Virus record (IMG/VR): IMGVR_UViG_3300009499_000123
Location: 1-59,656 of that record
Source of the DNA: a virus
Taxonomy: Duplodnaviria; Caudoviricetes
Length of the DNA stretch: 59,656 bases
Reading direction: 5' to 3' (one strand)
Positions within the stretch are counted from its first letter, which is position 1; the number at the start of each line of letters is the position of its first letter. This document shows positions 30,257-46,112 of the stretch, piece by piece. The notes under the pieces were generated by a model. The model searched no databases, was not told the origin of the DNA, and saw only the letters and a program-made list of their open reading frames with translations. The position numbers and the translations under genes were made by a program.

Positions 30257-30269
30257 CCAGGAGGCAACC

Positions 30270-30638
30270 ATGGCTCAACGTATCGCGGGCATCTGTTTCG
30301 TCAAGGTCAACGGCGCCCAATTCGAAATCTCCGGCGACATCGAGATTCCGCTGACCGAGTTCAAGCGCGAGGCCGTCATGGGCCTGTCCGGACCGGCCGG
30401 CTACAAGGAAACGGCGCTGGAACCCTACATCAAGGTGGTGGCGCTGTTCACGCCGGACTTTCCGGTGAACACCTTGCGCACCAACACCACACTGACCGTG
30501 ACGGCGGAACTCGCCAACGGCGTCGTCTACACGCTCTCCAACGCCTTCGTGCGCGGGGAGCCCAAAGCCAAACCCATCGACGGCACGATCGAGATCGAGT
30601 TCTCGGGAAGCCAGGGACAGTGGAGTAACAACCAATGA
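30270..30638 (+). CDS. Mu-like tail tube protein
   Basis: RIAG.C..KV.G..GYKE..PYI..AELANG..Y; follows the sheath gene. Confidence 0.88.
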   Translation: MAQRIAGICFVKVNGAQFEISGDIEIPLTEFKREAVMGLSGPAGYKETALEPYIKVVALFTPDFPVNTLRTNTTLTVTAELANGVVYTLSNAFVRGEPKAKPIDGTIEIEFSGSQGQWSNNQ

Positions 30639-31009
30639 GCGACCAAGAACTGACCATCCCCCTGTCCGCGCCGGTGATGGCGCATGGCGAGGAAATCACC
30701 TGCCTGGTGCTGCGCCAGCCGACCACGGCGGACCTGATCGAACTGGGGCAACCGATGCGGCTGCTGCCAGGCAATGGCATGGAGGACGCCGCCGTCGAAG
30801 TGCGCATGGGCGTGGTGGCGCATTACGTGGCGCGCCTTGCGTCGATTCCACTGTCCAGCGTCAAGTCCCTGTCGCTGGGTGACTTTGGCCGTGCGACGCA
30901 GGCGGTCCTGGGTTTTTTCGGGGAAGACGGCTCGGATCGGACGAACAGTTCGCCGAGCGCGTCTTCGAAGTCGCCTGGTTCTTCAAAACATCCCCGCGCG
31001 ACGTCCTGA
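30635..31009 (+). CDS. Tail assembly chaperone (gp41-like); a -1 frameshift extends it to 31086
   Basis: L.AP...HGE....L.LR.PT..D; slippery G GGT TTT TTC at 30910-30919. Confidence 0.85.
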   Translation: MSDQELTIPLSAPVMAHGEEITCLVLRQPTTADLIELGQPMRLLPGNGMEDAAVEVRMGVVAHYVARLASIPLSSVKSLSLGDFGRATQAVLGFFGEDGSDRTNSSPSASSKSPGSSKHPRATS

Positions 31010-31110
31010 GCTTGACCCTCACCGAATTCGAACTCTGGAACCGGCAGGCCGAGCGCATCGCGCAGCGCCTGCAGGGCGACGAGTGACGGCATCCGAATCA
31101 GAAACCAATC

Positions 31111-32916: not shown

Positions 32917-32931
32917 CGCCGGATTCCTCTC

Positions 32932-34194: not shown

Positions 34195-34195
34195 C

Positions 34196-35491
34196 ATGGC
34201 GAGCACTGATCCAGGCTATCCGGCGGGCCTGCCGGAGAATCAGGTGCGCCTCGTGGTGGGCGGCCAGGAATTCGGCGGCTGGAAGAAGATCCGCATCGAG
34301 GCCGGGATCGAGCGGCAGGCGCGCAGCTTCGAGCTGGAAGTCACCGACCGCTGGCCCGGACCGACCTCGGCCGCCACCGCAGACACCGCACCACCGGTCT
34401 GGCGCCGTATCCGGCCATTCGATGCCTGTCAGGTGCTGATCGGCAACGACCTGGTGCTGACCGGCTATGTCGATGCCACCCCGATCCAGTATGACGGCAA
34501 GCGCGTCAGCGTCACCGTCAAGGGCCGCAGCCGCACCTGCGATCTGGTCGACTGCTGCCCGCCCGATTCCGGGCGGGCAGCACCGGCGGGCAACGGCCTG
34601 TGGGCGGACGTCAAAGGCAAGGACGGCAAGACCGGCACGGTCGTCAAGCCGGCGGCGGCCAACACCAACGTCTGGCGCAACGCCAAGCTGGAGACCATTG
34701 CCGCCGCGCTGGCCGCGCCCTATGGCGTGCGCGTGCTGACCGAGATCGACAGCGGTGCGCCGATCACCGAGCACCACGTCCAGGTCGGGGAAACCGTGTT
34801 CGAGAGCATCGACCGGCTGATGCGCCTGCGCCATGTGCTGTCCACCGACAACGCCCGGGGCGACCTGGTGTTCATCGATGTCGGCAGCGCCGGCAATGCC
34901 ACCACCACGCTCGAGTTGGGCCAGAACATCCGGGAGGGGAGTTGCGAACTCGACTTCAAGGCGGTGATGTCCAGCTACGTCGTGAAGGGCCAGCGTGCGG
35001 GCAATGACGGCGACTTCGGCGTCATTGCCAACGAGGTCGAAGGCGACGATGACGGCGAGGCCGAGTTCGAAGGCGGGATCTCCGACGCCGGCACGCCGGT
35101 GACGGCGAGTCTGACGGATGCGCGTTCCAAGCGCTTTCGGGTGCTGGTGCTCAAGCAAGCCGGCCATGCCGACGCCGGCACCTGCCAGGACCGGGCGCTG
35201 TACGAGCGCGCGCACCGGGCCGCCAAGGCGCTCGAAGCCACCTATACGGTCGCTGGCTGGCGCCAGGGTGACGGACAGCTGTGGGTGCCGAACCTGCTGG
35301 TACGCGTCCGGGACGACTTGATCGGCTTCGACCAGACCATGGTCATCGCCGAAGCGCATTACCTGCTCGACGACAACGGACTGCGCACGCAATTGCGTGT
35401 CGGGCCGCCCGATGGTTACCGCTCCAAGGCGGCCAAGCCGCGCAAGGGCATCAAGCGCGGCGGCGCCGACACCTGGGGAGATGTGGAATGA
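34196..35491 (+). CDS. Mu gpP/gp44-like baseplate hub
   Basis: FGGWK..I..GIE..ARSF.L..TGYVD..GRS.T.DLVDC..GWRQ..G.LW.PN. Confidence 0.88.
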   Translation: MASTDPGYPAGLPENQVRLVVGGQEFGGWKKIRIEAGIERQARSFELEVTDRWPGPTSAATADTAPPVWRRIRPFDACQVLIGNDLVLTGYVDATPIQYDGKRVSVTVKGRSRTCDLVDCCPPDSGRAAPAGNGLWADVKGKDGKTGTVVKPAAANTNVWRNAKLETIAAALAAPYGVRVLTEIDSGAPITEHHVQVGETVFESIDRLMRLRHVLSTDNARGDLVFIDVGSAGNATTTLELGQNIREGSCELDFKAVMSSYVVKGQRAGNDGDFGVIANEVEGDDDGEAEFEGGISDAGTPVTASLTDARSKRFRVLVLKQAGHADAGTCQDRALYERAHRAAKALEATYTVAGWRQGDGQLWVPNLLVRVRDDLIGFDQTMVIAEAHYLLDDNGLRTQLRVGPPDGYRSKAAKPRKGIKRGGADTWGDVE

Positions 35492-35501
35492 GGTTCAATC
35501 C

Positions 35502-36140
35502 ATGACGGATTTCGCGCGCCTGGTCGCGCCCTATGCGCGCCGCCTGTCCAACATGGTCGCGCGTGGCAGCGTGTCCCTGGTCAACGCGGCGACCAAGATG
35601 CAGAGCCTGCAACTGCGCCTGTTGGCCGGCGAGTCCAAGGATGACGTCGAGCATTTCGAGCCGTATGGCTTGACCAGCCATCCCCAGCCCGGCGCCGAAT
35701 GCGTCGCGCTTTTTCTCGATGGCGACCGCTCGCATGGCGTCGTCGTGTGCGTGGCCGATCGTCGCTATCGGGTCAAGGGCCTGGCGAGCGGCGAAGTCAT
35801 CTTGCATGACGACCAGGGGCAGTCCGTCTATCTCATGCGCGGCGGCATCAAGCTGACTGACAAGGCGGGATCGACCGTTGTGATGCAAGGTGACGGCAGC
35901 GGATCGATGACGTTCGCGGCCGGCCTCACGATCAACGCGAACAGCAAGATCGTCGGCACGCTGGAAGTGACCCAGAACATCACGAGCGACGCCAGCATCA
36001 CGGCGGCACAGGACGTCGGTGACCAGGGTGGTGTCAAGACGATGGCCGGCATGCGGGAGATCTACAACGGCCACACGCATGCCGGCACCGACAGCCACGG
36101 CGACGGCTTCACCACCAACCCGCCGAACCAGCAGGAATAA
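35502..36140 (+). CDS. Baseplate spike (gpV / Mu gp45)
   Basis: EHFEPYGLTS.P..GDRSHG..DRRYR; C-terminal YNGHTH metal-binding tip. Confidence 0.9.
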   Translation: MTDFARLVAPYARRLSNMVARGSVSLVNAATKMQSLQLRLLAGESKDDVEHFEPYGLTSHPQPGAECVALFLDGDRSHGVVVCVADRRYRVKGLASGEVILHDDQGQSVYLMRGGIKLTDKAGSTVVMQGDGSGSMTFAAGLTINANSKIVGTLEVTQNITSDASITAAQDVGDQGGVKTMAGMREIYNGHTHAGTDSHGDGFTTNPPNQQE

Positions 36141-36143
36141 GCC

Positions 36144-36611
36144 ATGCGCGACACCATGCCGCTGACCGTCACCTTCGACGGCCAGACGACCCCGCTCGGC
36201 CTGCTCCAGGACATCGACAACGACAAGGCCCATCCGCTGGTGCGGGCCGTGCTCATCAGTCTCTTCACCTGGCGCCGCGCCAATGCCGACGACACCTTGC
36301 CCGACCCGAAGGGGTTTCGCATGGGCTGGTGGGGCGACTCCTACCCGGCGGTGGCCAACGACCGCATCGGCTCACGCCTGTGGCTGCTGGCGCGCGCGAA
36401 GCTCACGCTGACCACGGTGCAACGAGCCCAGGACTATGCCGAAGAGGCCCTGCAGTGGCTGATCGACGATGGCGTCGCCGCCCGCATCGCCGTGCGTGCG
36501 GAGCGCCAGGGCCTGTCGACGCTGGCCCTGCAATGCACGCTGTTCGCGGCCGATGGCACGGCGAACGCGGTGCTCAGGTTCGACAACCTCTGGAGTCTCT
36601 TGAATGTTTAA
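36144..36611 (+). CDS. Mu gp46-like baseplate protein
   Basis: ISLFTWRRA..GWWGD..IGSRLWLL.R.K..EALQWL..DG. Confidence 0.92.
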   Translation: MRDTMPLTVTFDGQTTPLGLLQDIDNDKAHPLVRAVLISLFTWRRANADDTLPDPKGFRMGWWGDSYPAVANDRIGSRLWLLARAKLTLTTVQRAQDYAEEALQWLIDDGVAARIAVRAERQGLSTLALQCTLFAADGTANAVLRFDNLWSLLNV

Positions 36612-37665
36612 CCGTCCGTCCCTCGCGGACCTGATCAATCGCACGACGAACGACGTGTTTCAACGGCTGCAGCAAGACAACGTGCTGCGCCGCGCCGACG
36701 CCCAGGTCTATGCCCGCGTGCTCGCCGGCGTGGCCCATGGCCTGTACGGTTTCATTGAATGGATCAGCCGCCAGATCATCATCGACACCGCCGAAGCCGA
36801 GTTCCTGGAGCGCTGGGCCTCCATCTGGGGCGTGCAGCGTCTCGCGGCAACACCCGCCACCGGCACCATCACCTTCACGGTGGCGCCGGGGGCAGCGGAC
36901 ATCCCGGCCGGTACGCTGGTGCAGACGCTCGATGGCACGCAATTCCAGACGACAGCGGACATCACGGTCAGCGGACTCCAGGCCACGACCACCGTCACGG
37001 CGGTCGCACCGTCTGCCGCCAGCAACGGCTACGCCGGGCAGACGGCCAATCTGGTCACGCCGGTGCTGGGCGTGCAGACCGCTGCCGTGCTCGGGCTGCT
37101 TGCCGGTGGCGGCGACCTCGAGTCCGACGACAGTCTGCGCGAGCGGCTGCTCAACCGCATCCAGCAACCGCCGCAAGGCGGGGACGCCAACGACTACGTG
37201 CAATGGACCCTGGCAACGCCCGGCGGCGGCGCCACCCGTGCTTGGGTCGTGGCCGAGCAATTCGGGCAAGGCACGGTGGGCGTCGCCTTCGTCTGCGACG
37301 GCAACGGCGCGGGCGCGGCGATCCTTCCCTCGGCCGCGCAGATCGCGGCCGTCGCCGCCTTCATCGACACGGTCCGCCCGGTCACCGCGCATGTGACGGT
37401 CTATGCGCCGGTCGCCGTGCCGATCGATTTCGCGATCGAAGGATTGAGCCCGGACACGCTGGCCGTTCAACAGGCCATCACGGCCGAACTCGCCGATCTG
37501 CTGGCGCGTGAGGGGCAGCCCGGCGGCACGATCCTGCTGTCGCACATGCGCTCGGCGATTTCCTCTGCGGCCCAGGAATGGGACTACGTGCTGGTTACTC
37601 CGGCCGCCAACGTCGTGTTGTCGCCCGGCCAAATCCCGGTCATGGGGAGGGTGGTATGGCAGTGA
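36604..37665 (+). CDS. Baseplate J / Mu gp47-like wedge protein
   Basis: GGGD.ESDDSLRERLL..PPQGG..DY..W..RAWV..GTV..RPVTA. Confidence 0.92.
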   Translation: MFNRPSLADLINRTTNDVFQRLQQDNVLRRADAQVYARVLAGVAHGLYGFIEWISRQIIIDTAEAEFLERWASIWGVQRLAATPATGTITFTVAPGAADIPAGTLVQTLDGTQFQTTADITVSGLQATTTVTAVAPSAASNGYAGQTANLVTPVLGVQTAAVLGLLAGGGDLESDDSLRERLLNRIQQPPQGGDANDYVQWTLATPGGGATRAWVVAEQFGQGTVGVAFVCDGNGAGAAILPSAAQIAAVAAFIDTVRPVTAHVTVYAPVAVPIDFAIEGLSPDTLAVQQAITAELADLLAREGQPGGTILLSHMRSAISSAAQEWDYVLVTPAANVVLSPGQIPVMGRVVWQ

Positions 37666-38279
37666 CGCAGCAGGTCAGCCAGCCACTGGCCGCCGCCGAC
37701 TACCTGGCGTCGCTGCAAAAGCTCCTGCCCTATGGCCCGGCGTGGACCGATGACGCCGACGCGGCCATCACCCGGCTGCTGACGGGCCTCGCGCAGGAAC
37801 TGGCACGGATCGATGCCAGAAGCTGGCAACTCATCGACGAGGCCGATCCGCGCACCACCAACGAATTGTTTCCCGATTGGCAGCGGGTGGCGGGCTTGCC
37901 CGATCCGTGCGTGGTAGCGCTCGGCAGTCAGCAGACGTTTGCGCAGCGACGGGCCACGCTGGTGTCCCGGCTGATCCAGGTCGGCGGCCAGTCTCGCGGT
38001 TACTTCATCGCCGTGGCGCGGGCATTGGGCTTCGCCATCTCGATCACTGAAGGCTGGCAGGAAATCGACACCGTCATTTCGCCGGTCAACAACCCGCTGG
38101 CCAATAGCAACTGGATTTACACCTGGACGATTCACGTGCCCCTCGGGGACACGCGCAGCACGCTCACCGTCAACGGCCGCGTCTCCGATCCGCTCGCGGC
38201 CTGGGGCAACACCTTGCTCGAGTGCGTGATGCGGCGGCTCAAGCCCGCCCACACCACGCTGCTCTTCAGCTACACGTAG
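37656..38279 (+). CDS. YmfQ / Mu gp48-like baseplate protein
   Basis: LLP.GPAW..E.DP..PDW.R..GLPD..GGQS..YF..LEC....KPAHT. Confidence 0.9.
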   Translation: MAVTQQVSQPLAAADYLASLQKLLPYGPAWTDDADAAITRLLTGLAQELARIDARSWQLIDEADPRTTNELFPDWQRVAGLPDPCVVALGSQQTFAQRRATLVSRLIQVGGQSRGYFIAVARALGFAISITEGWQEIDTVISPVNNPLANSNWIYTWTIHVPLGDTRSTLTVNGRVSDPLAAWGNTLLECVMRRLKPAHTTLLFSYT

Positions 38280-38287
38280 GAGATCAC

Positions 38288-38782
38288 ATGGACAACCGCG
38301 TCTGGGAGGCCAACGCCGCCCAAACACCACCTGCCGTGCCGGCCAATCCGTCGATCGGCTACCCGACCGACGGGAATCCGGCCACCAATACGCCGGCCAC
38401 CACGCCGGGGGATTACTGGTTCTATCAGGTCAGCGAGGAGATCCGCAATGTCATCCTGGCCGCTGGGCTCGCACCCGACCGCAACGCGCTCAACCAGCTC
38501 AGGCAGGCGATCGAGGTCCTGATCAATGCAGCGGTCGCCGCCGCGCTGGCGAACTACCGACCACCGGCGCCAGCTCCCACGCCCACACCGACCCCCGCAC
38601 CGACCCCGACGCCGACGCCGACGCCGACACCAACACCAACACCAACACCGACACCGACACCAACGCCTACGCCTACGCCAACTCCACCACCGCCGCCTCC
38701 ACCACCTCCACCACCTCCACCACCGCCGCCGCCACCGCCACCGCCACCGCCACCACCCCCACCGCCACCGCCGGGCGGCTGA
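38288..38782 (+). CDS. Tail-fibre-like protein (164 aa): Mu-type attachment domain, Pro-Thr repeats, Pro30, Gly-Gly
   Basis: TDGNP....PAT....WF....EE..NVI..AG...D....QL..AI is the Mu-type fibre N-terminus. Pro-X repeats at 38561-38683 and 30 Pro codons at 38684-38773; AGGAG RBS. Confidence 0.85.
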   Translation: MDNRVWEANAAQTPPAVPANPSIGYPTDGNPATNTPATTPGDYWFYQVSEEIRNVILAAGLAPDRNALNQLRQAIEVLINAAVAAALANYRPPAPAPTPTPTPAPTPTPTPTPTPTPTPTPTPTPTPTPTPTPPPPPPPPPPPPPPPPPPPPPPPPPPPPPPGG

Positions 38783-38791
38783 TCCAGGGAG

Positions 38792-39397
38792 ATGCCCATG
38801 TACCTGCAAATGGCCGGTCTGCAATTCATGCCGACCGGCGTGATCCTTTACGTCATCAACTACGTCGACCTCGATCGGCAGCACCTCGCCCGCGAGATCG
38901 ACGAGCGTTACGAGCCCTTCCACCACTGGGGCGAAGTGCCGGACGACTTCAGCTACCGCAAACCGTATCGCTACCGGTTGCGCGGCGGGGTGGTGGAAGC
39001 CTCGCCACCCGACGACCAGGACTACCGTTTCCACTACCGCCGGCTGCTGCTGATGGACAAGGTGCATGCGGCGTTGCGGGCGCAACGGACCTCATTCGGC
39101 TCGCGGTCCTTGCCGCTGCAGGAACGGCTGCTTGATCTCGCCCATGCCGAGTGCCAGGCGCTGAACGATCAGGGCGGCCAGAACGGTGAGGCGTTGCCGC
39201 TGCTGGAGGCGATGGCCACGGCCTGGAACACCACTCTGGCCACGGCGGCGGAGCGGGTGGGGATGGAGTACGCCGACCGGCAAGACGCGCTGATCCAGTC
39301 CGAGGTCCGCCGCTTACAGGCCCTGGCGGCCGTTTGTGCCGCGCGCGATCACCAGGACCTGGACGCGCTGTTCGTGAGGTACGGCTGCCATGACTGA
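38792..39397 (+). CDS. Putative tail-fibre assembly chaperone
   Basis: Directly after the fibre. C-terminal PLLEAMA..T.A..AERV..E..R..A..A..L pattern resembles fibre chaperones. Confidence 0.55.
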   Translation: MPMYLQMAGLQFMPTGVILYVINYVDLDRQHLAREIDERYEPFHHWGEVPDDFSYRKPYRYRLRGGVVEASPPDDQDYRFHYRRLLLMDKVHAALRAQRTSFGSRSLPLQERLLDLAHAECQALNDQGGQNGEALPLLEAMATAWNTTLATAAERVGMEYADRQDALIQSEVRRLQALAAVCAARDHQDLDALFVRYGCHD

Positions 39398-40406
39398 ATT
39401 GCTAGTCGCCCGCAATCTGGTGCGGGGCAATCCGTTCGCGAGCGGTCTGCGCCAGGTGATCGGGGGCGTCGTCACGACCTCGCGTCTGGCGTGCAAGCCC
39501 GATCTGTTGCGCTTTGGCGCGTGCTGCCCGATGCCCGATGCGACGACGGGGCCGCAGATGTCTTTCGCGGACTGCTGTGATGCCCGCGCGCGCGAATTGC
39601 TCGACGCGCATGCGCGGCTGCACGTCATGTGGTCGGGCGGTATCGATTCGACCGTGACGCTGGTCGCCTTGCTCAAGGCTTTGCCCGCCAACGAACACGA
39701 CCGGCTGACCGTGTACCTGTCGAGCCACAGCATCGCCGAGAATCCCGGGTTCTACCAGGCCCACATCGCCGGCCGGCTGCCCGTCCAACGGACTGTGGGC
39801 AAGGCAGGGTTGTACGACGAGGTGGTGGTCACCGGCGAGCTGGGTGACCAGTTGTTCGGTTCCGACCTGATGCTGGAGGCCACGCGGCGATTGGGCTTCG
39901 AGAGCTTGGCGCAGCCGCATGCCATGATCCTGCCCCGCCTGTTTGGCAGCATCGCCGGGGATGCCGAGGCAGGCGCCGCGATCTATCGGCGTTATGCGCC
40001 GATCGCCGACGAGGCTCCGTACCCTCTGGTCAGCGCCCAGGACTTCTTGTGGTGGTGGAACTTCTCCCAGAAATGGCAGCACGTGAAGTACCGGCATCTG
40101 CTCTATGAGCCACCGGGCTCGGACTATCGCGCGTTGCTCGGCAAGGTCCGGCATTTCTTCGATACGGAGACGTTCCAGCGCTGGAGCCTCACGCATCCCG
40201 CCGACAAACTGGGCGCCGGCATCGACACCTACAAGATGCCGGCCAAGCGCTACATCGTCGAGTTCACCGGCGATCAGAGCTACCTGACCAAGATGAAGAT
40301 CGGCTCGCTGTGCAAGGTCTTCAAGTATCCGCCGGTGGCCGCCATCACCACCGAGGGCGCGCCGGTCGATCAGGTCGGCTTGCAGGCGTTCGTCCTTTCT
40401 GACTGA
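39390..40406 (+). CDS. Asparagine-synthase-like ATP pyrophosphatase (PP-loop), no glutaminase domain
   Basis: VMWSGGIDST PP-loop and VVTGELGDQLFGS (compare the Asn synthase GEGADE.FGGY motif). Confidence 0.75.
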   Translation: MTELLVARNLVRGNPFASGLRQVIGGVVTTSRLACKPDLLRFGACCPMPDATTGPQMSFADCCDARARELLDAHARLHVMWSGGIDSTVTLVALLKALPANEHDRLTVYLSSHSIAENPGFYQAHIAGRLPVQRTVGKAGLYDEVVVTGELGDQLFGSDLMLEATRRLGFESLAQPHAMILPRLFGSIAGDAEAGAAIYRRYAPIADEAPYPLVSAQDFLWWWNFSQKWQHVKYRHLLYEPPGSDYRALLGKVRHFFDTETFQRWSLTHPADKLGAGIDTYKMPAKRYIVEFTGDQSYLTKMKIGSLCKVFKYPPVAAITTEGAPVDQVGLQAFVLSD

Positions 40407-40489
40407 ACGCCTCACTCCGTTCGTTTTCGATTCGCGGCCCGCGCCGCTCCCCCATTTGTTCAACCCATCCTTCCGAAGGAGGAATAGCC

Positions 40490-40816
40490 ATGCCTTTCAC
40501 CGTCACCAAAACCACCACGCGCCCAGCCAATGACGTGCCCGTCTTCAAGGACAGCGCCAATCTCGATCCCGAGGTTGCGACCGCGATCGCCAACGTCGGC
40601 CATGCCGTGCGCACGCATCCGGCCGTGCAGTCCCGCTCGGTCGAGATGTCGGCCGACGGGCTGACCAAGACCACGACCACCGTCTGGGAGAGCCAGGAGG
40701 CTTATGACAGCTTTCAGGCCGCCAACAGCGGTGACCTGGGCAAGGTCTCCAGCGCGGCCAGCGCCTACAACAAGTCCAACGGCATCGTCGTCAACACCAC
40801 CAAGACGGGGGCCTGA
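40490..40816 (+). CDS. Hypothetical protein (108 aa), possibly a dimeric alpha/beta barrel
   Basis: Strong AAGGAGG RBS. TTVWESQEAYDSF resembles the WES.EA motif of ABM-type barrels. Confidence 0.6.
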   Translation: MPFTVTKTTTRPANDVPVFKDSANLDPEVATAIANVGHAVRTHPAVQSRSVEMSADGLTKTTTTVWESQEAYDSFQAANSGDLGKVSSAASAYNKSNGIVVNTTKTGA

Positions 40817-40818
40817 TC

Positions 40819-41529
40819 ATGAAAACCGGCACCTATATCGACGCCCGGCACAGCATGTACCCGTGCCAGTCCTGGCTGCTGTCCAAGCCCGTCAAGGACC
40901 ACATCACCGTTCCGCCGTATTGCACACTGTACGGCTTTGTGGTTTCCGGCCACGCAGACCGGGCTGCCTCGATCATCGAGGGCGCGGCCGGAGCGGATGG
41001 TCCGAGGGTTCTGCGCCAAGCCGGACAGGGGCAGTATTTCTGCCACGCCACCGGCAGCGAAACGGCCACGCTGGTTCTCGATGACGAGGGCGACGTCCAG
41101 GTCTTTGCCGTGATCCGGCATGGTTTCCGTGGGCAGGGACTCGTCGGCGGGCCGATCGAGGCCTCGGGGCGGCTTTGCTACATCGACAACTGCTCGGACT
41201 CCCTGCTGGTCTACCCGCCGCGCAAGGGCGACCCGAGCCTGAATCACCTATCGTTCCCGGCCGGCGTGCGCCAGTCGTTTCACATCCATCCCTCGATTCG
41301 CCTGGGCGTGGTCGCCAACGGGTCCGGCTTTGCCTGCTTCGCGGACCGTGAGATGCCGCTGACGGCCGGCACCTTGTTCTGCATCGAGGAGCGCGAGCTG
41401 CATCGCTTCCGCACGGAAGATCAGCGGCTCGATGTCATCGCGTTCCACCCGGACGGCGATTGGGGGCCGACCGATCAGGATCACCCGATGCTCAACCGCA
41501 CGTATCTGTCGGCGGCGCGTCATGAATGA
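40819..41529 (+). CDS. Cupin-domain protein
   Basis: HIHPSIRLGVVANGSG..L.AG..F.I....LHRF cupin metal motif. Confidence 0.78.
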   Translation: MKTGTYIDARHSMYPCQSWLLSKPVKDHITVPPYCTLYGFVVSGHADRAASIIEGAAGADGPRVLRQAGQGQYFCHATGSETATLVLDDEGDVQVFAVIRHGFRGQGLVGGPIEASGRLCYIDNCSDSLLVYPPRKGDPSLNHLSFPAGVRQSFHIHPSIRLGVVANGSGFACFADREMPLTAGTLFCIEERELHRFRTEDQRLDVIAFHPDGDWGPTDQDHPMLNRTYLSAARHE

Positions 41530-42193
41530 TCCGGCCCTCCTACGGATGACATACCCCGATGCGCAGCTGCATGCCGGCGGGCATCGGCACCAGGTGCTGA
41601 CGGCGGTCCGGTCGCCCAATATCGTCGTGCTGGGCGGGTTTCTGGACGAGGACGCCTGCCGCGATCTGATCGATCTGGCCCGCCCGCGCATGAAACGGTC
41701 CTCGGTCGTGCATCACGCCGAGGGGGTGCGCATCGACGAAACGCGCACCAGTTCCGGCTGCCATTTCCGGCGCGGGGAAGTGGCGCTGGTGGCGGGCATC
41801 GAGCAGCGCATCGCCGAACTCACCGACATCCCCCCGGAAAACGGCGAGGGCCTGCAGGTGTTGCATTACCTGCCTGGGCAGCACTACGTCCCGCACTGGG
41901 ATTACTTCCCGCCGGAGAGCCCTTCGTCCGCCGACATCGTCCGGCCGGAATTCGGCGGCCAGCGTGTCGCCACCTTCATCGCCTACCTGAACACCGTTCC
42001 CCTCGGCGGGGAGACGGAATTCCCGCGTGCCAGCGTCAAGGTGGCAGCCGTCCAGGGTAATGCCTGCTTTTTCTCCTACCGCACGGCGGATGGACAGCCC
42101 GATCCACTGACGCTGCACAGCGGCAACGCCGTCATCGACGGCGAGAAGTGGATCGCGGTCAAGTGGCTGCGCGAGGGGCGCTATCCCCAGTAA
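41522..42193 (+). CDS. Prolyl 4-hydroxylase-like 2OG-Fe(II) dioxygenase
   Basis: RTSSG, EGLQVLHY..GQ.Y.PHWD (HxD), QRVAT...YLN.V..GGET.FP and LHSG..V..GEKW. Confidence 0.92.
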   Translation: MNDPALLRMTYPDAQLHAGGHRHQVLTAVRSPNIVVLGGFLDEDACRDLIDLARPRMKRSSVVHHAEGVRIDETRTSSGCHFRRGEVALVAGIEQRIAELTDIPPENGEGLQVLHYLPGQHYVPHWDYFPPESPSSADIVRPEFGGQRVATFIAYLNTVPLGGETEFPRASVKVAAVQGNACFFSYRTADGQPDPLTLHSGNAVIDGEKWIAVKWLREGRYPQ

Positions 42194-42253
42194 GGCCGGC
42201 CGAGCCATGAGTCGGCTCGGCGGCATCCCAAATTTCAACGAAAGGAGTCAGAC

Positions 42254-42535
42254 ATGAGCGATGTCTGTGAATGCGGCCGTCCCATCGGTCCGCAAGTAGA
42301 GCGGCATGCCGGCGGCGTGCTGTCGGACAGCGATCGGCAGGCGCTGGCCGATGCGCTGTGCGAGGCATTCGAAAAATCGGCGCCGGTACTGTCCCAAGCC
42401 CTGTCCGATGCGCTGCAAGCGCAGTTCGAGCGCGTGATCGGGCGTGGTGTCGTGGGCTGGCTCAAACGCATCCTGATCGCCGGCATCTTGATTCTGGCCG
42501 GCTACACCTACACGAAAACCGGAGGTCTGAAATGA
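42254..42535 (+). CDS. Single-TM membrane protein (holin/antiholin candidate)
   Basis: AAGGAG RBS; C-terminal hydrophobic helix; first gene of the lysis region. Confidence 0.55.
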   Translation: MSDVCECGRPIGPQVERHAGGVLSDSDRQALADALCEAFEKSAPVLSQALSDALQAQFERVIGRGVVGWLKRILIAGILILAGYTYTKTGGLK

Positions 42536-43008
42536 ACATCACTATCACCCGAAAACAGTCCACGCCCAGCGGCACCCCGGGTCAACTGGTCGCCACAAAT
42601 CCGGCAGGTGAGACCTTTACCTGCAACACCCTGGAGCTACCGTGGCAGGACAACACCCCGGGCGTGTCCTGCATCATCGATGACAGCTACGGCGCGACGA
42701 TCTGGCATTCCGATCATCTCGACTGCGACGTCCTGCGTCTGGAAGACAAGCATGGCCGGCAGAACTGCCTGATCCACTGCGGCAACTTTGCCGGGGACGT
42801 CTCGCAGGGCATGGAAACCCAGGTACACGGCTGCACGCTGGTCGGCAGCCGCTACGGGTCGCTGGTCAATGACGACGGAGATGGGCAACTGGCCATCCTA
42901 GACAGCCGCGTGACGCTGGCCAAACTGGTCGCCTTCGTCGGCAGCGGTGAGCACACCGTCAACTATCAATGGGCGGAAGGCTGTGACCCTGCCGCCTGCC
43001 ACGCTTGA
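42532..43008 (+). CDS. DUF5675-like protein, endolysin candidate
   Basis: T.G.L..C.TLELPW.DN....SCI..LIH.GN..GC.LVG; sits between two membrane-protein genes. Confidence 0.7.
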   Translation: MNITITRKQSTPSGTPGQLVATNPAGETFTCNTLELPWQDNTPGVSCIIDDSYGATIWHSDHLDCDVLRLEDKHGRQNCLIHCGNFAGDVSQGMETQVHGCTLVGSRYGSLVNDDGDGQLAILDSRVTLAKLVAFVGSGEHTVNYQWAEGCDPAACHA

Positions 43009-43020
43009 GGAGGGAACACC

Positions 43021-43398
43021 ATGGACATCAGTGGCATCGGCACGGCGGCGGAAGCCGCCAAGAGCATCATCGGCATGTTCTTCCCCGACAAGACCGAGGA
43101 GGACAAGGCCAAGCTGGCAGCGACGCTGGCGCTCATTCAGACGCAGACCGATATCGACAAGGCCGAGGCGCAGAGCTCGGACCCGTTGCAGCACTGGCGC
43201 GGGGGCCTCGGCTGGGTGTGCGTCGCGGGGTATTTCTGGAACTTCGTCGGCGGGCCGCTCACGAACGCGGCAGCGGCCGCCGTCGGCCATCCGCTCAATC
43301 TGCCGTCGCTCGACCTCGGACCACTGGCCACGCTCACGCTCGGCATGTTGGGGCTCGGTGGGCTGCATGTGGCGGAGCGGGTGAACGGGGCGGCGTAG
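43021..43398 (+). CDS. 3TM-type holin
   Basis: D..EA.S...WR...GWVC..GMLGLGG signature. Confidence 0.8.
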   Translation: MDISGIGTAAEAAKSIIGMFFPDKTEEDKAKLAATLALIQTQTDIDKAEAQSSDPLQHWRGGLGWVCVAGYFWNFVGGPLTNAAAAAVGHPLNLPSLDLGPLATLTLGMLGLGGLHVAERVNGAA

Positions 43399-43541
43399 CG
43401 ATGTGCCAAGCTAGCCTCCCGGCATGGAATCGAGACGGGTGGGTAATTTCACGGCGCCCCGAAGCCTGCAAGCCAAGAAATCCTTGGCTTGCAGGCCGAA
43501 CCGAGCGTTCATGTCATCCACAGTCACAACGGAACATAGAG

Positions 43542-43832
43542 ATGGGTATTCGATACAAAAAAGCCATCATCGATGACGTCACGTCGCGTAACATGGACGC
43601 CAGTCTGCAAGACAATTTGCTTGACCTGTTCGAGTCGGCCATGAAGTCGGTAGCCACGACGCTGGCGCGTGAGGCCAAATTCGACACCACCGACTTCGCT
43701 ACCGCCAAGGCGCGCGGCTGCGAGGGTTTCACCCTGCTGGTGAGTCGCGCCCGCGCCGATTCACGAGACAGCTGGTTCGGCGCGTTTCAGCGTGGCGATG
43801 AACGCCTCGACGTGATCGGCCATCTGGAATAA
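43542..43832 (+). CDS. Hypothetical protein (96 aa)
   Basis: Stand-alone ORF convergent with the cargo operon. Confidence 0.55.
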   Translation: MGIRYKKAIIDDVTSRNMDASLQDNLLDLFESAMKSVATTLAREAKFDTTDFATAKARGCEGFTLLVSRARADSRDSWFGAFQRGDERLDVIGHLE

Positions 43833-43836
43833 CTCA

Positions 43837-44784
43837 TCAGTCCTCCATCTCGGGAACGTCCCAGTCCACCAGACGTGCCTCGCCGGTCTGGTAGAACTGC
43901 TTCACCAACTTCACGTACTCCAAAAAATCCCGGTTCTCCGTGGCCAGTCGGTTAGCCATATCCCAATCGATCTCGTCACGCTCGCGCGCCGGAATCAGCA
44001 CTTGGCTGTCAGCAGGGTTGTCCACATCCAGCTTGATGAAGCCGATGCCGTGGGCGGCGAAGAGCATCCGCAGCTCCTTCAGGGTGTCGGTGCCGCCAAT
44101 TTCCGCCGCAACCAGATAGCCGAAGTTGGCCCACGATGAGTTCGATACGGCCTGAAAGAAGCACTCACGCACGTTTGAACGGTTGATCAGCAGCTTGGCC
44201 TCGAACGACCACAGCTTGGTGCGCTTGTCGGAATACTGGTTGACGCAGTCGCGTACCTCCTGATGCCACTCAGCGCCCAAGTCCTCCATGCCGACCACGT
44301 CCGGGTACAGCCAGCGGTTGCCGTTGGGGCCGCGTTTGTTCGATGACCGCTTTTCGTCGATGCGCTTGGAGAACACGCCGAATTCTTCCCACAGGTATTG
44401 CGACAGCAATGGATACAGCGCATGCTCGTCGATCTTCAAAGCACTCGCATCTGCTGCCGCCGACGTTCCCTCGCTTTCGACCGCTGCCACTTCGGCGCTG
44501 TCTGAGCGCTCCGAGTAGTAGTACCTGCGTGGCCGCCCCTCGGTCGTTTTCAGCTCTGGGTGCCGCGTTTGCATGCGCGGGCGCTGCGAGCTGATCTCTG
44601 CAACGAGTTGCTGCACCAAATCAGCATCGGACTTGATGTAATCGCCCCGACTATTTGCCCGCTTTTCCTGACACTCATCCGGGTAGGTGGCGAATACCCA
44701 CTCGGCGATCTGCCGTGCAGTGAACTTCTCCTCGGGTCGTTCCTTCAGGTAGCCGATGACGGCCTTTGCCAGATTGAGTGCCAT
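43837..44784 (-). CDS. COG2958/HrgA-like protein (HTH plus PD-(D/E)xK nuclease-like)
   Basis: EHALYPLL..W.YPDVVG..SFE.K..FFQAVSNSSWANFGYLVA. Confidence 0.8.
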   Translation of the reverse strand: MALNLAKAVIGYLKERPEEKFTARQIAEWVFATYPDECQEKRANSRGDYIKSDADLVQQLVAEISSQRPRMQTRHPELKTTEGRPRRYYYSERSDSAEVAAVESEGTSAAADASALKIDEHALYPLLSQYLWEEFGVFSKRIDEKRSSNKRGPNGNRWLYPDVVGMEDLGAEWHQEVRDCVNQYSDKRTKLWSFEAKLLINRSNVRECFFQAVSNSSWANFGYLVAAEIGGTDTLKELRMLFAAHGIGFIKLDVDNPADSQVLIPARERDEIDWDMANRLATENRDFLEYVKLVKQFYQTGEARLVDWDVPEMED

Positions 44785-44795
44785 TGTTCTTCCCC

Positions 44796-45572
44796 TCAGA
44801 GCCGGAACAGCTTCTTGATTTCATTCTCTGCCGTTACCGGCATGTCATCTTTTTCGTACTGCTTGACGTTGGCCGCGATGCTTTTTGCTCGGGTGATTTC
44901 GTTGTTCACCCACTGCGAGTAGGACGAGTTCGTATTCAGGTTCTCGATGACTGCCAGAAAGTAGTCCTTTTGGTTCGACAGAAACCAGAAGTTCAGGCCA
45001 CAGACCCATTTCTCCATCTCGAAGGATTGGAAAGGGAATCCGGCAGTTGCATTCCAGTACTTGAAAAGCCGAATCGTTGGTTTGATCAGCGATTTATGAT
45101 CTTTGTTCTTTGCTTCGAGCGTGGAGTTGAAGTCGTTCGGGTTGGTGGTCATCCAACCACCGGAGGTATTCGGGATTTGCAATCCGTCGAGCCATGCCAT
45201 CGTTGCTGGTACGAGGTCGAACTTGATGTGATTCAGTTCGAGCAAGATAGTTGGGCTGGACTGCCGGATCTCCGACGAGCCGTAATATTTCTCGACGAAG
45301 GTCTTGAGCCGATTCAAATATGTCTGAGGCGTGGCATTGTTCTCGCTGAAGACGATCATGTAATCGATATCCGAATGCTCGTCCATCGAGCGCGGCAGGA
45401 TGGTTCCCCGCGTCGATGAGCCGAAGCGGAAGTGCCGCTTGATTACACTACTGGCGAAATGCTGCCCGATCCGGGTTTGCAACGTCGAAATGGAGGTCGT
45501 GATCGACGACTGCTCGGTCGACGAAAGCACTGCATTGCTGGCAGTGTCCGTCAGAAAGCTCAATACTGACAT
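44796..45572 (-). CDS. SMODS-type (CD-NTase-like) nucleotidyltransferase
   Basis: FGSSTRGT..SDIDY and KFDLVPA catalytic triad, W..TNP, IRL.KYWN. Confidence 0.85.
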   Translation of the reverse strand: MSVLSFLTDTASNAVLSSTEQSSITTSISTLQTRIGQHFASSVIKRHFRFGSSTRGTILPRSMDEHSDIDYMIVFSENNATPQTYLNRLKTFVEKYYGSSEIRQSSPTILLELNHIKFDLVPATMAWLDGLQIPNTSGGWMTTNPNDFNSTLEAKNKDHKSLIKPTIRLFKYWNATAGFPFQSFEMEKWVCGLNFWFLSNQKDYFLAVIENLNTNSSYSQWVNNEITRAKSIAANVKQYEKDDMPVTAENEIKKLFRL

Positions 45573-45576
45573 CCTG

Positions 45577-46098
45577 TCACTCCTCCTTGTCCACCTTGTG
45601 GGTAGCTTCGCCTTCCTCGATTCCCCTGCGTGCGGCGACGAACGCCCTTCGAGGAATGCTCGGACTCTTCTGGTTCAATTCGTTACGCTCGGTCGCGAGA
45701 GCCTTTAATCTCTCGGACATCTCATTCAGCCGATCCGCCTGAAGTAGTTCGATTTCCCGGAAGAAGCGCACGTCATTTCTGAGAGCTAGGAATTTCCCGG
45801 CGGCGGCACGATGCATTGCCGCGCGTTCATTGGGCTTGAGAAACGTCATAAGCCCCGTCAGCAGCGATGCCAGCAATGCAAATGCGCTAGCCAATTCCGG
45901 CTGGCTCTTTATCAGCGTGGCCCCGGCAATCGCCGCGAGCGCCGTCGCGGGAATGCCCAACCAATAGTTCCGCCTTACCCAGGTGTCCTCAGCGTTGAAG
46001 TGCCCTTTGCTGGAGTATGTCGCATCCTCCTCTATCCGTTCGGCCTCGCGGTGCAGAGCCAAAATCATGGACTGATCGGTTGTTTGAATCTGGCTCAT
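45577..46098 (-). CDS. SLATT-domain 2TM effector
   Basis: SSKGHFNA...W....WLGIP, two TM helices, A..H..A..F..L, then C-terminal helices; adjacent to the SMODS gene. Confidence 0.8.
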   Translation of the reverse strand: MSQIQTTDQSMILALHREAERIEEDATYSSKGHFNAEDTWVRRNYWLGIPATALAAIAGATLIKSQPELASAFALLASLLTGLMTFLKPNERAAMHRAAAGKFLALRNDVRFFREIELLQADRLNEMSERLKALATERNELNQKSPSIPRRAFVAARRGIEEGEATHKVDKEE

Positions 46099-46112
46099 TG
46101 TGTGCACCTCTT

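What the first reader, a model, noticed from the sequence alone, without database searches (positions are those of the whole stretch)
38288..42193. Candidate phage tail-fibre modification system: polyproline fibre, prolyl hydroxylase, ATP-dependent ligase and cupin
Seen: six co-oriented, mostly abutting genes fill the tail-fibre slot between the baseplate and lysis genes. They are a fibre stub ending (Pro-Thr)n-Pro30-Gly-Gly, a chaperone-like ORF, an Asn-synthase-like PP-loop enzyme, a 108-aa protein, a cupin and a P4H-type 2OG-Fe(II) dioxygenase. Established: plant, algal and chlorovirus P4Hs hydroxylate poly-Pro and Pro-rich repeats, and hydroxyproline is the glycan acceptor in extensins. 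Inference: substrate and tailoring enzymes are co-encoded like a RiPP cluster, so the phage may build its adsorption fibre as a chemically modified hydroxyproline-rich polymer instead of a folded receptor-binding domain. I know of no described phage system with this layout.
Basis: partly seen in the sequence, partly recalled or inferred. Interest (0 to 1): 0.93.

Follow-up and report, generated by a model that had tools for sequence, protein, structure and literature searches.

The report
Polyproline phage tail fibre with enzymes
A family of prophages has swapped the receptor-binding end of its tail fibre for a long run of prolines and always carries a proline hydroxylase and four other genes beside it, which gives phage-borne proline hydroxylases their first obvious candidate substrate.

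Summary
After a Mu gp48-like baseplate gene come six co-oriented genes, then the lysis genes. They are a 164-aa fibre (N-terminal fibre domain, then (PT/PA)20-Pro30-GG), ORF201, a PP-loop enzyme, a 108-aa ORF, a cupin and a true prolyl 4-hydroxylase.

The layout is kept in 13 related loci from Comamonas, Ralstonia, Xanthomonas, Undibacterium and viral contigs. All six genes are under purifying selection. The Pro tract avoids CCC codons.

Sister phages with folded fibre tips lack all five companion genes.

The reading is only partly supported:
- The P4H is most like the algal and Bacillus enzymes among solved structures, so the fibre is its best candidate substrate.
- PP-loop and cupin form a widespread pair. 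It occurs in phages far from fibre genes, in bacterial cassettes, and fused with methyltransferases in algae, so it is not fibre-specific.
- In 10 of 68 lineages the PP-loop gene does sit next to Gly- or Pro-run proteins, mostly gp38-like adhesins.
- ORF201 is a PP-loop partner, not a chaperone. No glycosyltransferase is present.

The parts
37656..38279 (+). Mu gp48-like baseplate wedge gene (context); the longest ORF starts at 37578
   Evidence: Pfam Phage_Mu_Gp48 E 4.6e-28; phrog_203 baseplate wedge E 1.2e-55
38288..38563 (+). N-terminal tail-fibre domain of the 164-aa fibre
   Evidence: Six tail-fibre PHROGs among 11 hits, residues 24-98. 2135 representative proteins match at E<=1e-3. Five of 10 homologues tested carry Collar or Gp53-like_C after this domain.
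38564..38782 (+). Pro-rich tail of the fibre: (PA/PT)x20, Pro30, Gly-Gly, TGA stop
   Evidence: Read directly. 50 of 72 residues are Pro. Codons are CCA 21, CCG 20, CCT 5, CCC 4, against CCG 142, CCC 74, CCA 15, CCT 7 in other phage genes (Fisher p 1.7e-9 for CCA, 4e-4 for CCC). A Pro-rich tail ending in Gly is kept in 13 of 13 close loci.
38798..39397 (+). ORF201, a member of a family that abuts PP-loop genes; an earlier ATG lies at 38792
   Evidence: No Pfam family. A profile of the CPR/Bdellovibrio/viral family hits 12 of 13 orthologues at E 9e-6 to 6e-3. hhalign gives probability 85.9%, E 5e-6, over 91 columns. The iterated profile finds the family in 29 of 160 loci, each copy beside a PP-loop gene (for L011, L014, L018 and the second L035 copy the neighbour is a second PP-loop gene, read from the maps for L011 and L035).
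39390..40406 (+). PP-loop ATP pyrophosphatase of an unnamed, mostly viral family
   Evidence: Invariant W81 S82 G83 G84 D86 S87 and no invariant Cys. No Pfam family. 209 homologues. Atlas clusters are 78-100% viral. Only the P-loop region matches LarE, TilS or GMP synthase, at E>=0.086.
40404..40423 (+). Weak terminator-like hairpin between the PP-loop gene and the 108-aa gene
   Evidence: Consensus scan only. The same gap holds inserted genes in the Xanthomonas loci.
40490..40816 (+). 108-aa protein; ABM/Dabb-like is a lead only
   Evidence: No Pfam, PHROG or NCBIfam match. Atlas feature score 0.92 to clusters carrying PF03992 ABM. Intact in the five loci checked.
40819..41529 (+). Metal-binding cupin of the family paired with the PP-loop enzyme
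   Evidence: AraC_binding E 2.5e-6. Invariant H155, H157, H195 and an HPD..GP..H.M tail motif. Present in 99 of 160 PP-loop loci. Fused to the PP-loop domain in 7 of 18 long homologues.
41522..42193 (+). Prolyl 4-hydroxylase (2OG-Fe(II) oxygenase), 223 aa
   Evidence: PF13640 E 3.3e-11. PDB: Chlamydomonas P4H 2jig/3gze E 2.5e-43, Bacillus anthracis P4H E 5e-37. H125, D127, H199 and K209 invariant.
42254..43398 (+). Lysis region (context): 93-aa ORF, DUF5675 protein at 42532-43008, 3-TM holin at 43021-43398
   Evidence: DUF5675 E 2.7e-18 and GTA_holin_3TM E 2.3e-15; phrog_3427 holin

Best explanation
This Mu-like prophage lineage has replaced the usual folded fibre tip and its chaperone with one co-inherited block. 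The fibre keeps its baseplate-binding N-domain. It then continues as a 60-90-residue Pro-rich rod, presumably a polyproline-II helix, that ends in Gly.

The block's P4H most likely hydroxylates that rod in the cytoplasm before assembly, giving a hydroxyproline-rich fibre.

The other three conserved proteins are the PP-loop enzyme, its ORF201 partner and the cupin. They form a separate, widespread enzyme module. It is inferred to run an adenylation-dependent step followed by a metal-dependent step. It is not specific to Pro-rich fibres, and its substrate is unknown. In several phage lineages it sits next to fibre-tip adhesin genes, so its role here is probably linked to adsorption rather than to building the rod.

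Shown: gene content, synteny, purifying selection, P4H family membership and the PP-loop-cupin link.
Inferred: that the fibre is the P4H substrate, and every chemical step.
For: Fibre and block:
- 13 of 13 close loci keep the N-domain, a Pro-rich tail ending in Gly, and a stop. The tail reaches about 85 Pro in Xanthomonas.
- 12 of those 13 loci hold the whole block; L007 ends inside the PP-loop gene.
- dN/dS of the six genes is 0.078-0.204 in four comparisons. Their dS matches that of the baseplate and lysis genes.
- The Pro tracts use 0-5 CCC codons and have no C run longer than 5 bases in nine loci.
- No promoter-like site lies in 36000-44000, and gene ends overlap or abut.
- 0 of 12 sister loci (gp48 38-58% identical) carry ORF201, PP-loop, p108, cupin or P4H. 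11 of them have a fibre with the same N-domain.
- Of the 150 best representatives of the N-domain, none has a Pro-rich tail.

P4H:
- E 2.5e-43 to Chlamydomonas P4H.
- Catalytic residues invariant.
- One independent viral contig, L272, has a P4H 215 nt upstream of a protein with 27 consecutive Pro.

PP-loop module:
- Cupin present in 99 of 160 PP-loop loci.
- PP-loop and this cupin fused in 7 of 18 long homologues.
- The ORF201-like partner occurs in 29 of 160 loci, each copy beside a PP-loop gene.
- Same-strand ORFs with a run of 8 or more Gly or Pro lie within 3 kb of the PP-loop gene in 41 of 160 loci, or 10 of 68 lineages. None lies in the larger outer flanks.
- In Pseudomonas phage Cygsa01 the order is distal fibre, poly-Gly protein, two PP-loop genes.
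Against: - No experiment or mass spectrum exists.
- 73 other viral P4H loci show only two weak Pro-rich ORFs nearby and no PP-loop or cupin. Phage P4Hs therefore usually act on something not encoded next door.
- 80 viral loci with runs of 15 or more Pro or Gly have no PP-loop and no cupin.
- The two largest PP-loop lineages, of 47 and 21 loci, have no Gly/Pro-run neighbour. In some members of the 21-locus lineage the neighbours are SbcCD-like genes.
- A separate five-locus lineage (L120) has PhoH and other accessory genes as neighbours.
- The slot between fibre and lysis genes accepts insertions: the Xanthomonas loci carry extra genes there.
- How a Pro rod would recognise a host is unexplained.
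Confidence: 0.4

Rival explanations
1. Accessory cassette. None of the five companion genes acts on the fibre. They are accessory genes lodged in the permissive slot between fibre and lysis genes. They act on a host metabolite, nucleic acid or envelope component, for example to change the receptor or exclude other phages. The Pro-rich tail is an unmodified spacer.
For: - PP-loop and cupin occur in non-fibre settings: beside SbcCD-like genes, beside PhoH, in stand-alone bacterial three-gene cassettes with a membrane protein in 17 loci, and fused with two methyltransferases in algae.
- 7 of 160 loci have homologous tandem methyltransferases beside the PP-loop gene.
- 73 other phage P4Hs have no Pro-rich neighbour of note.
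- Xanthomonas loci show further insertions in the same slot.
Against: - The block has diverged in step with the phage backbone, with similar dS.
- It has the backbone's GC3 of 0.81-0.87 and no promoter-like site of its own.
- It is absent wherever the fibre has a folded tip.
- A poly-Pro substrate beside a P4H of the poly-Pro-accepting type would be a large coincidence.
Confidence: 0.3
2. All five companions tailor the fibre in the manner of a RiPP cluster, with ORF201 as recognition partner. The PP-loop enzyme activates a carboxylate on the fibre, perhaps the conserved C-terminal Gly. The cupin, the ABM-like protein and the P4H oxidise it.
For: - Block co-inheritance.
- The C-terminal residue is Gly in 13 of 13 loci.
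- ORF201 overlaps the PP-loop gene start by 8 bases, and its family lies beside PP-loop genes.
- PP-loop genes recur next to gp38-like adhesins.
Against: - The PP-loop-cupin pair exists in eukaryotic algae and in bacterial cassettes, where no phage fibre exists.
- The penultimate residue varies (G, D or Q).
- There is no Pfam match to lasso-cyclase-type Asn synthetases.
- No leader/core organisation is visible.
Confidence: 0.12
3. Relic. The fibre is a truncated remnant in a defective prophage or tailocin, and the Pro tract is an expanded linker without function.
For: - There is no receptor-binding domain.
- The tract is built from 6-, 9-, 18- and 33-base repeats that could expand by slippage.
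- The record is rated 75% complete.
Against: - The reading frame and stop are kept in 13 of 13 loci across at least four genera.
- CCC codons are avoided.
- dN/dS of the N-domain is 0.095-0.204, with neighbouring structural genes equally constrained.
- ORFs of typical size and order for head, sheath, tube and tape-measure genes are present, judged by position only.
Confidence: 0.08
4. Translation aid. The PP-loop enzyme, with the cupin, modifies a tRNA or a translation factor so that long Gly or Pro runs in adhesin genes can be decoded.
For: - From recall, many PP-loop enzymes modify tRNA.
- PP-loop genes lie beside poly-Gly and poly-Pro genes in 10 of 68 lineages.
- The tract is enriched in CCA and ACA codons.
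- The module occurs in cells of all kinds.
Against: - 0 of 80 viral loci with runs of 15 or more Gly or Pro have the PP-loop enzyme or the cupin.
- The family has no invariant Cys, so thiolation is unlikely.
- No tRNA-binding domain was detected.
Confidence: 0.07

Closest known systems
Chlorovirus PBCV-1 prolyl 4-hydroxylase with Pro-rich viral proteins; Chlamydomonas Cr-P4H-1 (PDB 2jig, 3gze)
   Same: A virus-borne P4H of the same fold. The window enzyme matches 2jig at E 2.5e-43 and the PBCV-1 enzyme 5c5t at E 2.5e-12. A Pro-rich candidate substrate is encoded in the same genome. That these enzymes accept poly-Pro and (SP)n or (PAPK)n peptides is recalled; the PBCV-1 paper was seen only as a reference in PMC9301287.
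   Different: Here the host is a bacterium, the enzyme has no membrane anchor, and the candidate substrate is a virion tail fibre in the same operon. No activity has been measured.
Collagen-like (Gly-X-Y) tail-fibre proteins of prophages, for example in E. coli O157:H7 (PMC3368898; listing and start of abstract seen)
   Same: An extended, Pro-containing, non-globular segment inside a prophage tail-fibre protein.
   Different: Those have Gly-X-Y triplets, folded flanking domains and no co-encoded hydroxylase (recalled). This one has PT/PA repeats and pure poly-Pro, no Gly-X-Y, no distal domain, and a P4H.
T2/S16-type gp38 adhesins with polyglycine-II helices (listings)
   Same: A low-complexity fibre-tip protein just after the distal fibre gene. 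Gp38-like poly-Gly proteins lie next to PP-loop genes in several lineages.
   Different: The Pfam GP38 match is weak (E 4.3e-5, below cut-off). From recall, classical T-even gp38 genes have no PP-loop neighbour. The window fibre is poly-Pro, not poly-Gly.
RiPP clusters such as lasso peptides (Asn-synthetase-like cyclase plus RRE partner); recalled
   Same: Substrate and tailoring enzymes are co-encoded. A PP-loop enzyme has a small partner protein whose gene overlaps it.
   Different: No match to PF00733 and no leader/core organisation. The would-be substrate is a structural protein. The PP-loop-cupin pair also exists without any such substrate.
Carboxylate- or carbonyl-adenylating PP-loop enzymes: QueC, LarE, TilS, NAD synthetase, diphthine-ammonia ligase Dph6
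   Same: The SGGxDS motif. Weak local matches to LarE (E 0.086), TilS (0.14) and nitrile synthetase (1.7). The link with methyltransferases recalls the Dph5/Dph6 pair (recalled).
   Different: Similarity is limited to about 40 residues around the P-loop. The remaining roughly 250 residues, including the WWWNF.QKWQ motif, match nothing named.

Membership tests
Prolyl 4-hydroxylase (2OG-Fe(II) oxygenase, PF13640) | Double-stranded beta-helix domain scoring above the Pfam cut-off | tested here: met
   44.4 bits against a cut-off of 27, E 3.3e-11
Prolyl 4-hydroxylase (2OG-Fe(II) oxygenase, PF13640) | His-x-Asp...His iron triad and the 2-oxoglutarate-binding Lys | tested here: met
   H125, D127, H199 and K209 are invariant in 13 sequences. 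They sit in the segments PHWDYF, LHSG and KW that align with PHYDYF, LHGS and KW of 2jig. Their catalytic roles are recalled.
Prolyl 4-hydroxylase (2OG-Fe(II) oxygenase, PF13640) | Near full-length similarity to solved P4Hs | tested here: met
   2jig/3gze E 2.5e-43; B. anthracis 3itq/5iax/5hv0 E about 5e-37; human C-P4H alpha-2 E 2.3e-19
Prolyl 4-hydroxylase (2OG-Fe(II) oxygenase, PF13640) | Hydroxylates peptidyl proline | not testable with these tools
   Needs an enzyme assay or mass spectrometry
PP-loop ATP pyrophosphatase superfamily | SGGxDS pyrophosphate-binding loop | tested here: met
   S82 G83 G84 D86 S87 invariant in 23 sequences
PP-loop ATP pyrophosphatase superfamily | Rossmann-like alpha/beta fold | not testable with these tools
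Asparagine synthetase B / lasso cyclase family (PF00733) | Match to the family profile | tested here: not met
   No Pfam family at E<=0.01. One Atlas cluster is merely auto-named 'Asparagine synthase family protein'.
MnmA-type tRNA 2-thiouridylase (the annotation in phage Cygsa01) | Catalytic cysteines (requirement recalled) | tested here: not met
   No invariant or nearly invariant Cys in alignment A1. The annotation was seen.
Cupin superfamily | Cupin barrel profile match and metal-binding His residues | tested here: met
   AraC_binding 27.7 bits against 21.1; Cupin_2 23.5 bits, below 27.2. H155, H157 and H195 invariant in 16 sequences.
Phage tail fibre | Fibre N-terminal domain, encoded just after the baseplate wedge genes | tested here: met
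   Six tail-fibre PHROGs among 11 hits, E down to 1.7e-9. The gene follows the gp48-like gene.
Phage tail fibre | Folded distal receptor-binding domain | tested here: not met
   Residues 93-164 are Pro, Thr, Ala and Gly only. Homologues carry Collar or Gp53-like_C in 5 of 10 tested.
Tail-fibre assembly chaperone (proposed for ORF201) | Match to a chaperone family | tested here: not met
   No Pfam family. The only PHROG is of unknown function, E 0.0017. ORF201 is instead related to a family that lies beside PP-loop genes.
RiPP-type precursor plus tailoring cluster | Leader/core precursor and a recognised RRE or cyclase family | tested here: inconclusive
   No RRE, PqqD or PF00733 match. The ORF201 fold is unknown because the structure tools were off.
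Extensin-like hydroxyproline-O-glycosylated polymer | A glycosyltransferase to add the glycan | tested here: not met
   None of the six proteins matches a glycosyltransferase family. The rest of the prophage was not scanned for one.
ABM / Dabb-fold monooxygenase (PF03992), proposed for the 108-aa protein | Match to the family profile | tested here: inconclusive
   No Pfam hit. Atlas feature score 0.92 with 155 shared features, which is a lead only.

The most novel reading that the evidence does not exclude
The fibre tip is made by enzymes rather than by folding. The Pro-rich rod is hydroxylated. Its conserved C-terminal Gly is then adenylated by the PP-loop enzyme, guided by ORF201. It is then joined to, or turned into, a non-ribosomal receptor-binding group shaped by the cupin and the ABM-like protein. 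The PP-loop(-cupin) genes found after gp38-like poly-Gly adhesins in unrelated phages would do the same kind of chemistry. That would define a general, undescribed way in which phages finish their adhesins.
Probability: 0.08. Interest if true: 0.95.

Novelty: new variant of a known kind. Interest (0 to 1): 0.68.

Why it matters
Phage receptor-binding proteins are thought of as folded domains. A conserved, selected fibre that ends in up to about 85 prolines challenges that view.

P4H genes are common in viral metagenomes, and a 2022 survey calls their use by viruses 'cryptic' (PMC9301287, passage read). This lineage offers a concrete pair to test, with enzyme and candidate substrate in one operon.

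The work also exposes a large enzyme pair with no Pfam family: a PP-loop enzyme and a cupin. The pair is:
- often accompanied by an ORF201-like partner or by two methyltransferases;
- found in phages and bacteria;
- found as a single fused protein in algae.

Its recurrent position beside fibre-tip adhesin genes is a lead on phage host recognition.

Tried and rejected
- Stop-codon read-through joining the fibre to ORF201. ORF201 is in the same frame in all 13 loci, but the stop varies (TGA, TAA, or TGA followed by TAG), so a conserved read-through is unlikely.
- Homopolymer assembly error. Rejected, because the tract uses mixed CCN codons with C runs of 5 bases or fewer.
- Defence system. PADLOC gave nothing for the module.
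- Link to 7-deazaguanine genes. QueE/QueD-like genes (named from recalled motifs) lie near the PP-loop gene in only 3-4 of 160 loci.
- Function from solved structures. Sequence and profile searches gave only generic PP-loop and cupin matches.
- Reverse test starting from gp38-like poly-Gly proteins. How many such adhesins have a PP-loop neighbour is therefore unknown.
- The fibre N-domain found no cultured phage by tblastn. The PP-loop enzyme found one, Cygsa01.
- Expression. RNA-labelled runs X4 and X5 are held only as contigs. They cover 30000-48000 evenly at depth 3-9, tail genes and neighbouring non-phage genes alike. DNA carry-over cannot be excluded, and nothing can be said about timing.
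- One tRNA-Ala gene lies near the Cygsa01 PP-loop genes; it is not informative.
- Literature. No paper holds 'PP-loop', 'cupin' and 'phage' together. The one paper with PP-loop, cupin, methyltransferase and gene cluster describes a different system. Searches on hydroxyproline or polyproline with tail fibre found no description of this layout. Supplementary files were not consulted.
- Structure prediction, complex prediction and the earlier-findings tool gave no result. No fold evidence enters this report.

Full report
**What is there.** The window is a whole IMG/VR virus record of 59,656 bases, rated 75% complete. Judged by ORF size and order only, it holds a prophage with terminase, portal, capsid, sheath, tube and tape-measure genes, followed by Mu-like baseplate genes. 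The last baseplate gene is Mu gp48-like (Pfam E 4.6e-28; phrog_203 E 1.2e-55). Six + strand genes follow, then a DUF5675 protein and a 3-TM holin.

| Gene | Coordinates | Size |
|---|---|---|
| Fibre | 38288-38782 | 164 aa |
| ORF201 | 38798-39397 | 199 aa from this start (201 aa from the earlier ATG at 38792) |
| PP-loop enzyme | 39390-40406 | 338 aa |
| p108 | 40490-40816 | 108 aa |
| Cupin | 40819-41529 | 236 aa |
| P4H | 41522-42193 | 223 aa |

Gene ends overlap or abut, except for an 83-base gap after the PP-loop gene that holds a weak hairpin. No sigma-70-like promoter site was found in 36000-44000.

**The fibre.** Residues 24-98 match 11 PHROGs, six of them tail-fibre families (E down to 1.7e-9). 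The rest of the protein is twenty PA/PT pairs, thirty Pro, Gly-Gly and a stop.

The N-domain is common: 2135 representative proteins match at E<=1e-3. None of the best 150 has a Pro-rich tail. Of 10 homologues scanned, 5 carry a Collar or Gp53-like_C domain after it. The tail therefore stands where a folded tip normally is.

**Conservation.** Thirteen close loci keep the same design: N-domain, Pro-rich tail, final Gly, stop. They come from Comamonas phosphati, an uncultured Ralstonia, Xanthomonas sp. GPE 39, X. albilineans, two Undibacterium strains, one uncultured proteobacterium and six viral contigs. L003/L082 and L085/L086 look like duplicates.
- The tail varies between PT, PA, PV or pure Pro, up to about 85 Pro in Xanthomonas.
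- The endings are GG, SGG, TGG, DG or QG.
- Twelve of the 13 loci carry all downstream genes; L007 ends inside the PP-loop gene.

A search starting from gp48 found 10 loci with gp48 at 76% identity or more. All 7 that reach past the fibre have the full block.

**Selection.** In four pairwise comparisons, dN/dS of the six genes is 0.078-0.204. Baseplate and lysis genes give 0.022-0.327, with similar dS. The block has therefore diverged together with the phage.

Pro codons in the window's tail differ from those in the rest of the phage:

| | CCA | CCG | CCT | CCC |
|---|---|---|---|---|
| Pro tail | 21 | 20 | 5 | 4 |
| 11 other phage genes | 15 | 142 | 7 | 74 |

Fisher tests give p 1.7e-9 for CCA and 4e-4 for CCC. 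Nine relatives use 0-5 CCC codons and have no C run above 5 bases. The tract is a maintained coding sequence, not junk or an assembly artefact.

**Sister phages.** Twelve loci have baseplate genes related at 38-58% identity (gp48).
- Eleven have a fibre with the same N-domain.
- None has ORF201, PP-loop, p108, cupin or P4H.
- In L253 the slot holds a 174-aa fibre and a 110-aa ORF that I read as chaperone-like (a reading, not a tested match), followed directly by what I read from the sequences as lysis genes, also untested.

The six-gene block replaces the usual 'fibre tip plus chaperone'.

**The P4H.** It scores above the PF13640 cut-off. Its matches to solved structures are:
- Chlamydomonas P4H 2jig/3gze, E 2.5e-43;
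- Bacillus anthracis P4H, E about 5e-37;
- human collagen P4H alpha-2, E 2.3e-19;
- the chlorovirus enzyme 5c5t, E 2.5e-12.

H125, D127, H199 and K209 are invariant. Outside this phage lineage the nearest relatives are about 280-aa proteins at about 50-54% identity. Four are named, three of them betaproteobacterial (Leptothrix, Comamonadaceae, Methylibium). They carry an N-terminal extension that the phage enzyme lacks.

Among 80 viral P4H loci, 7 are this lineage. Of the other 73, two have a weak Pro-rich ORF within 6 kb, and none has a PP-loop or cupin gene.

Among 80 viral loci chosen for twenty consecutive CCN codons, one (L272) has a P4H. It is membrane-anchored and lies 215 nt upstream of a 172-aa membrane protein with 27 consecutive Pro. 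I read that contig as resembling a eukaryotic giant virus; that is a reading, not a test.

So adjacency of a P4H to poly-Pro is rare, but not unique to this lineage.

**The PP-loop enzyme, ORF201 and the cupin.**
- The PP-loop protein has no Pfam family but 209 homologues.
- Its Atlas clusters are 78-100% viral.
- It has an invariant WSGGIDS motif and no conserved Cys.
- Relatives lie in 145 genome stretches and at least 523 viral stretches.

In the 160 loci kept, the cupin is present in 99. A second, more distant cupin subfamily is clearly homologous. The cupin has invariant H155, H157, H195 and an HPD..GP..H.M motif.

ORF201 is related to a family found beside PP-loop genes in CPR, Bdellovibrio and viral loci:
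- profile hits to 12 of 13 orthologues, E 9e-6 to 6e-3;
- hhalign probability 85.9%, E 5e-6;
- after iteration, 29 of 160 loci, each copy beside a PP-loop gene.

Eighteen longer homologues exist. Seven join the PP-loop domain to this same cupin (profile E 1e-55 to 1e-67). All seven also carry methyltransferase domains by precomputed Pfam. The four I scanned show one or two of them between the PP-loop domain and the cupin. Four of the seven carry a eukaryotic source label or name, one being the diatom Seminavis robusta. Seven of 160 loci have homologous tandem methyltransferases near the PP-loop gene.

The pair is thus one functional unit of wide distribution, and it cannot be specific to phage fibres.

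**Where the pair sits in phages.**
- At 45% identity the PP-loop proteins form 21 lineages.
- The two largest, with 47 and 21 loci, have no Gly- or Pro-run neighbour. In the 21-locus lineage some members lie beside SbcCD-like genes and, by my reading, a peptide deformylase.
- Another lineage lies among PhoH, denV-like and 2OG-oxygenase genes.
- Same-strand ORFs of 150 aa or more with a run of eight or more Gly or Pro lie within 3 kb of the PP-loop gene in 41 of 160 loci, or 10 of 68 lineages at 60% identity.
- No such ORF lies in the outer flanks, although those hold more bases: 1.08 Mb against 0.87 Mb.

Most of these neighbours are gp38-like proteins:
- Pfam GP38 at E 4.3e-5, below cut-off;
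- tail-fibre PHROGs at E down to 2.9e-19.

In the one cultured phage with the family, Pseudomonas phage Cygsa01, the order is:
1. baseplate wedge;
2. a fibre-like ORF;
3. the distal fibre (phrog_11011, E 4.9e-41);
4. a 278-aa poly-Gly protein;
5. a PP-loop gene;
6. a 90-aa ORF;
7. a second PP-loop gene.

Three viral loci have a 1700-2370-aa Pro/Gly/Ala-rich protein just downstream of the partner and PP-loop genes.

Conversely, 0 of 80 loci with very long Gly or Pro runs have the pair. The link is therefore to adhesin genes, not to homopolymer runs as such.

**How it most likely works.**

I take three things as shown:
- the fibre is a selected product;
- the block is one heritable unit that replaces a folded tip;
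- the P4H is a real P4H.

I infer, at about even odds, that the P4H hydroxylates the Pro-rich rod before assembly.

I infer that the PP-loop enzyme, with ORF201, adenylates a carboxylate or carbonyl, and that the cupin performs a metal-dependent step on the same substrate. The substrate is unknown. It could be the fibre, a ligand for it, a host surface precursor or a nucleic acid. The wide distribution argues against the fibre itself.

p108 may be an ABM-type protein, but this is an Atlas lead only. No glycosyltransferase family was found in the block.

**Novelty.** I found no description of this layout. It is best filed as a new variant of two known things: Pro-rich or collagen-like phage fibres, and virus-borne P4Hs. 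It is joined to an enzyme pair that has no Pfam family and that the searches did not find described.

**Limits.**
- No structure or complex prediction could be run.
- Expression data were uninformative.
- Gene calls in fetched loci are my own ORF heuristics.
- The close loci are one lineage, so their agreement counts as one observation of co-inheritance, not thirteen.

Noticed in passing
window 43837-46107, - strand: A CBASS-type oligonucleotide cyclase at 44796-45572 (PADLOC PDLC00769, E 4.1e-119) lies just past the lysis genes. It is flanked by unassigned ORFs of 315 aa and 176 aa. Larger - strand ORFs follow up to about 52 kb, and GC drops to 0.54-0.58 there.
   Followed up: partly
L003 9044-11415 and L006 9115-10356 (Xanthomonas loci): The gap between the PP-loop gene and p108 holds extra DNA. 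In L003, - strand ORFs of 231 and 228 aa lie there. Partial copies of the first 25-35 codons of p108 precede the intact p108 gene, two in L003 and one in L006. This looks like repeated cassette insertion at one site.
   Followed up: partly
P0400-P0407 (long homologues); L011, L018, L025, L026, L028, L035, L152: Single proteins of 1270-1817 aa join the PP-loop domain, one or two SAM methyltransferase domains and the same cupin. One is from the diatom Seminavis robusta. Seven bacterial or viral loci have homologous tandem methyltransferase genes near the PP-loop gene.
   Followed up: partly
L272 4528-5929: A viral contig that looks like a eukaryotic giant virus (my reading) has a membrane-anchored P4H 215 nt upstream of a 172-aa membrane protein with 27 consecutive prolines. 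This is an independent case of a P4H next to poly-Pro.
   Followed up: partly
L144 9468-16382; also L154 and L155: Giant proteins of 1700-2370 aa are rich in Pro, Gly and Ala, with (AP)n, PPPP and Cys-Gly repeats. They lie 0.5-0.8 kb downstream of an ORF201-like partner and a PP-loop gene.
   Followed up: no
L161 5721-7870 (Pseudomonas phage Cygsa01, PP179332): Both PP-loop genes are annotated 'tRNA-specific 2-thiouridylase MnmA'. The family has no conserved cysteine, so this name is probably wrong.
   Followed up: partly
window 38780-38800 and the same place in 13 loci: ORF201 lies in the same reading frame as the fibre, separated by one stop (TGA or TAA) or two (TGA TAG). This may be a trace of an ancestral single gene.
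   Followed up: partly
L120 3713-10167: One viral locus carries three PP-loop paralogues, the cupin, a VOC/glyoxalase-family protein and a 2OG-FeII_Oxy_3 oxygenase, beside PhoH and a denV-like gene.
   Followed up: partly
L021 and 16 other loci, most of them Bacteroidota: A stand-alone three-gene cassette recurs with no conserved flanking genes. It consists of a roughly 170-aa protein with one predicted membrane helix, the PP-loop enzyme and the cupin.
   Followed up: no
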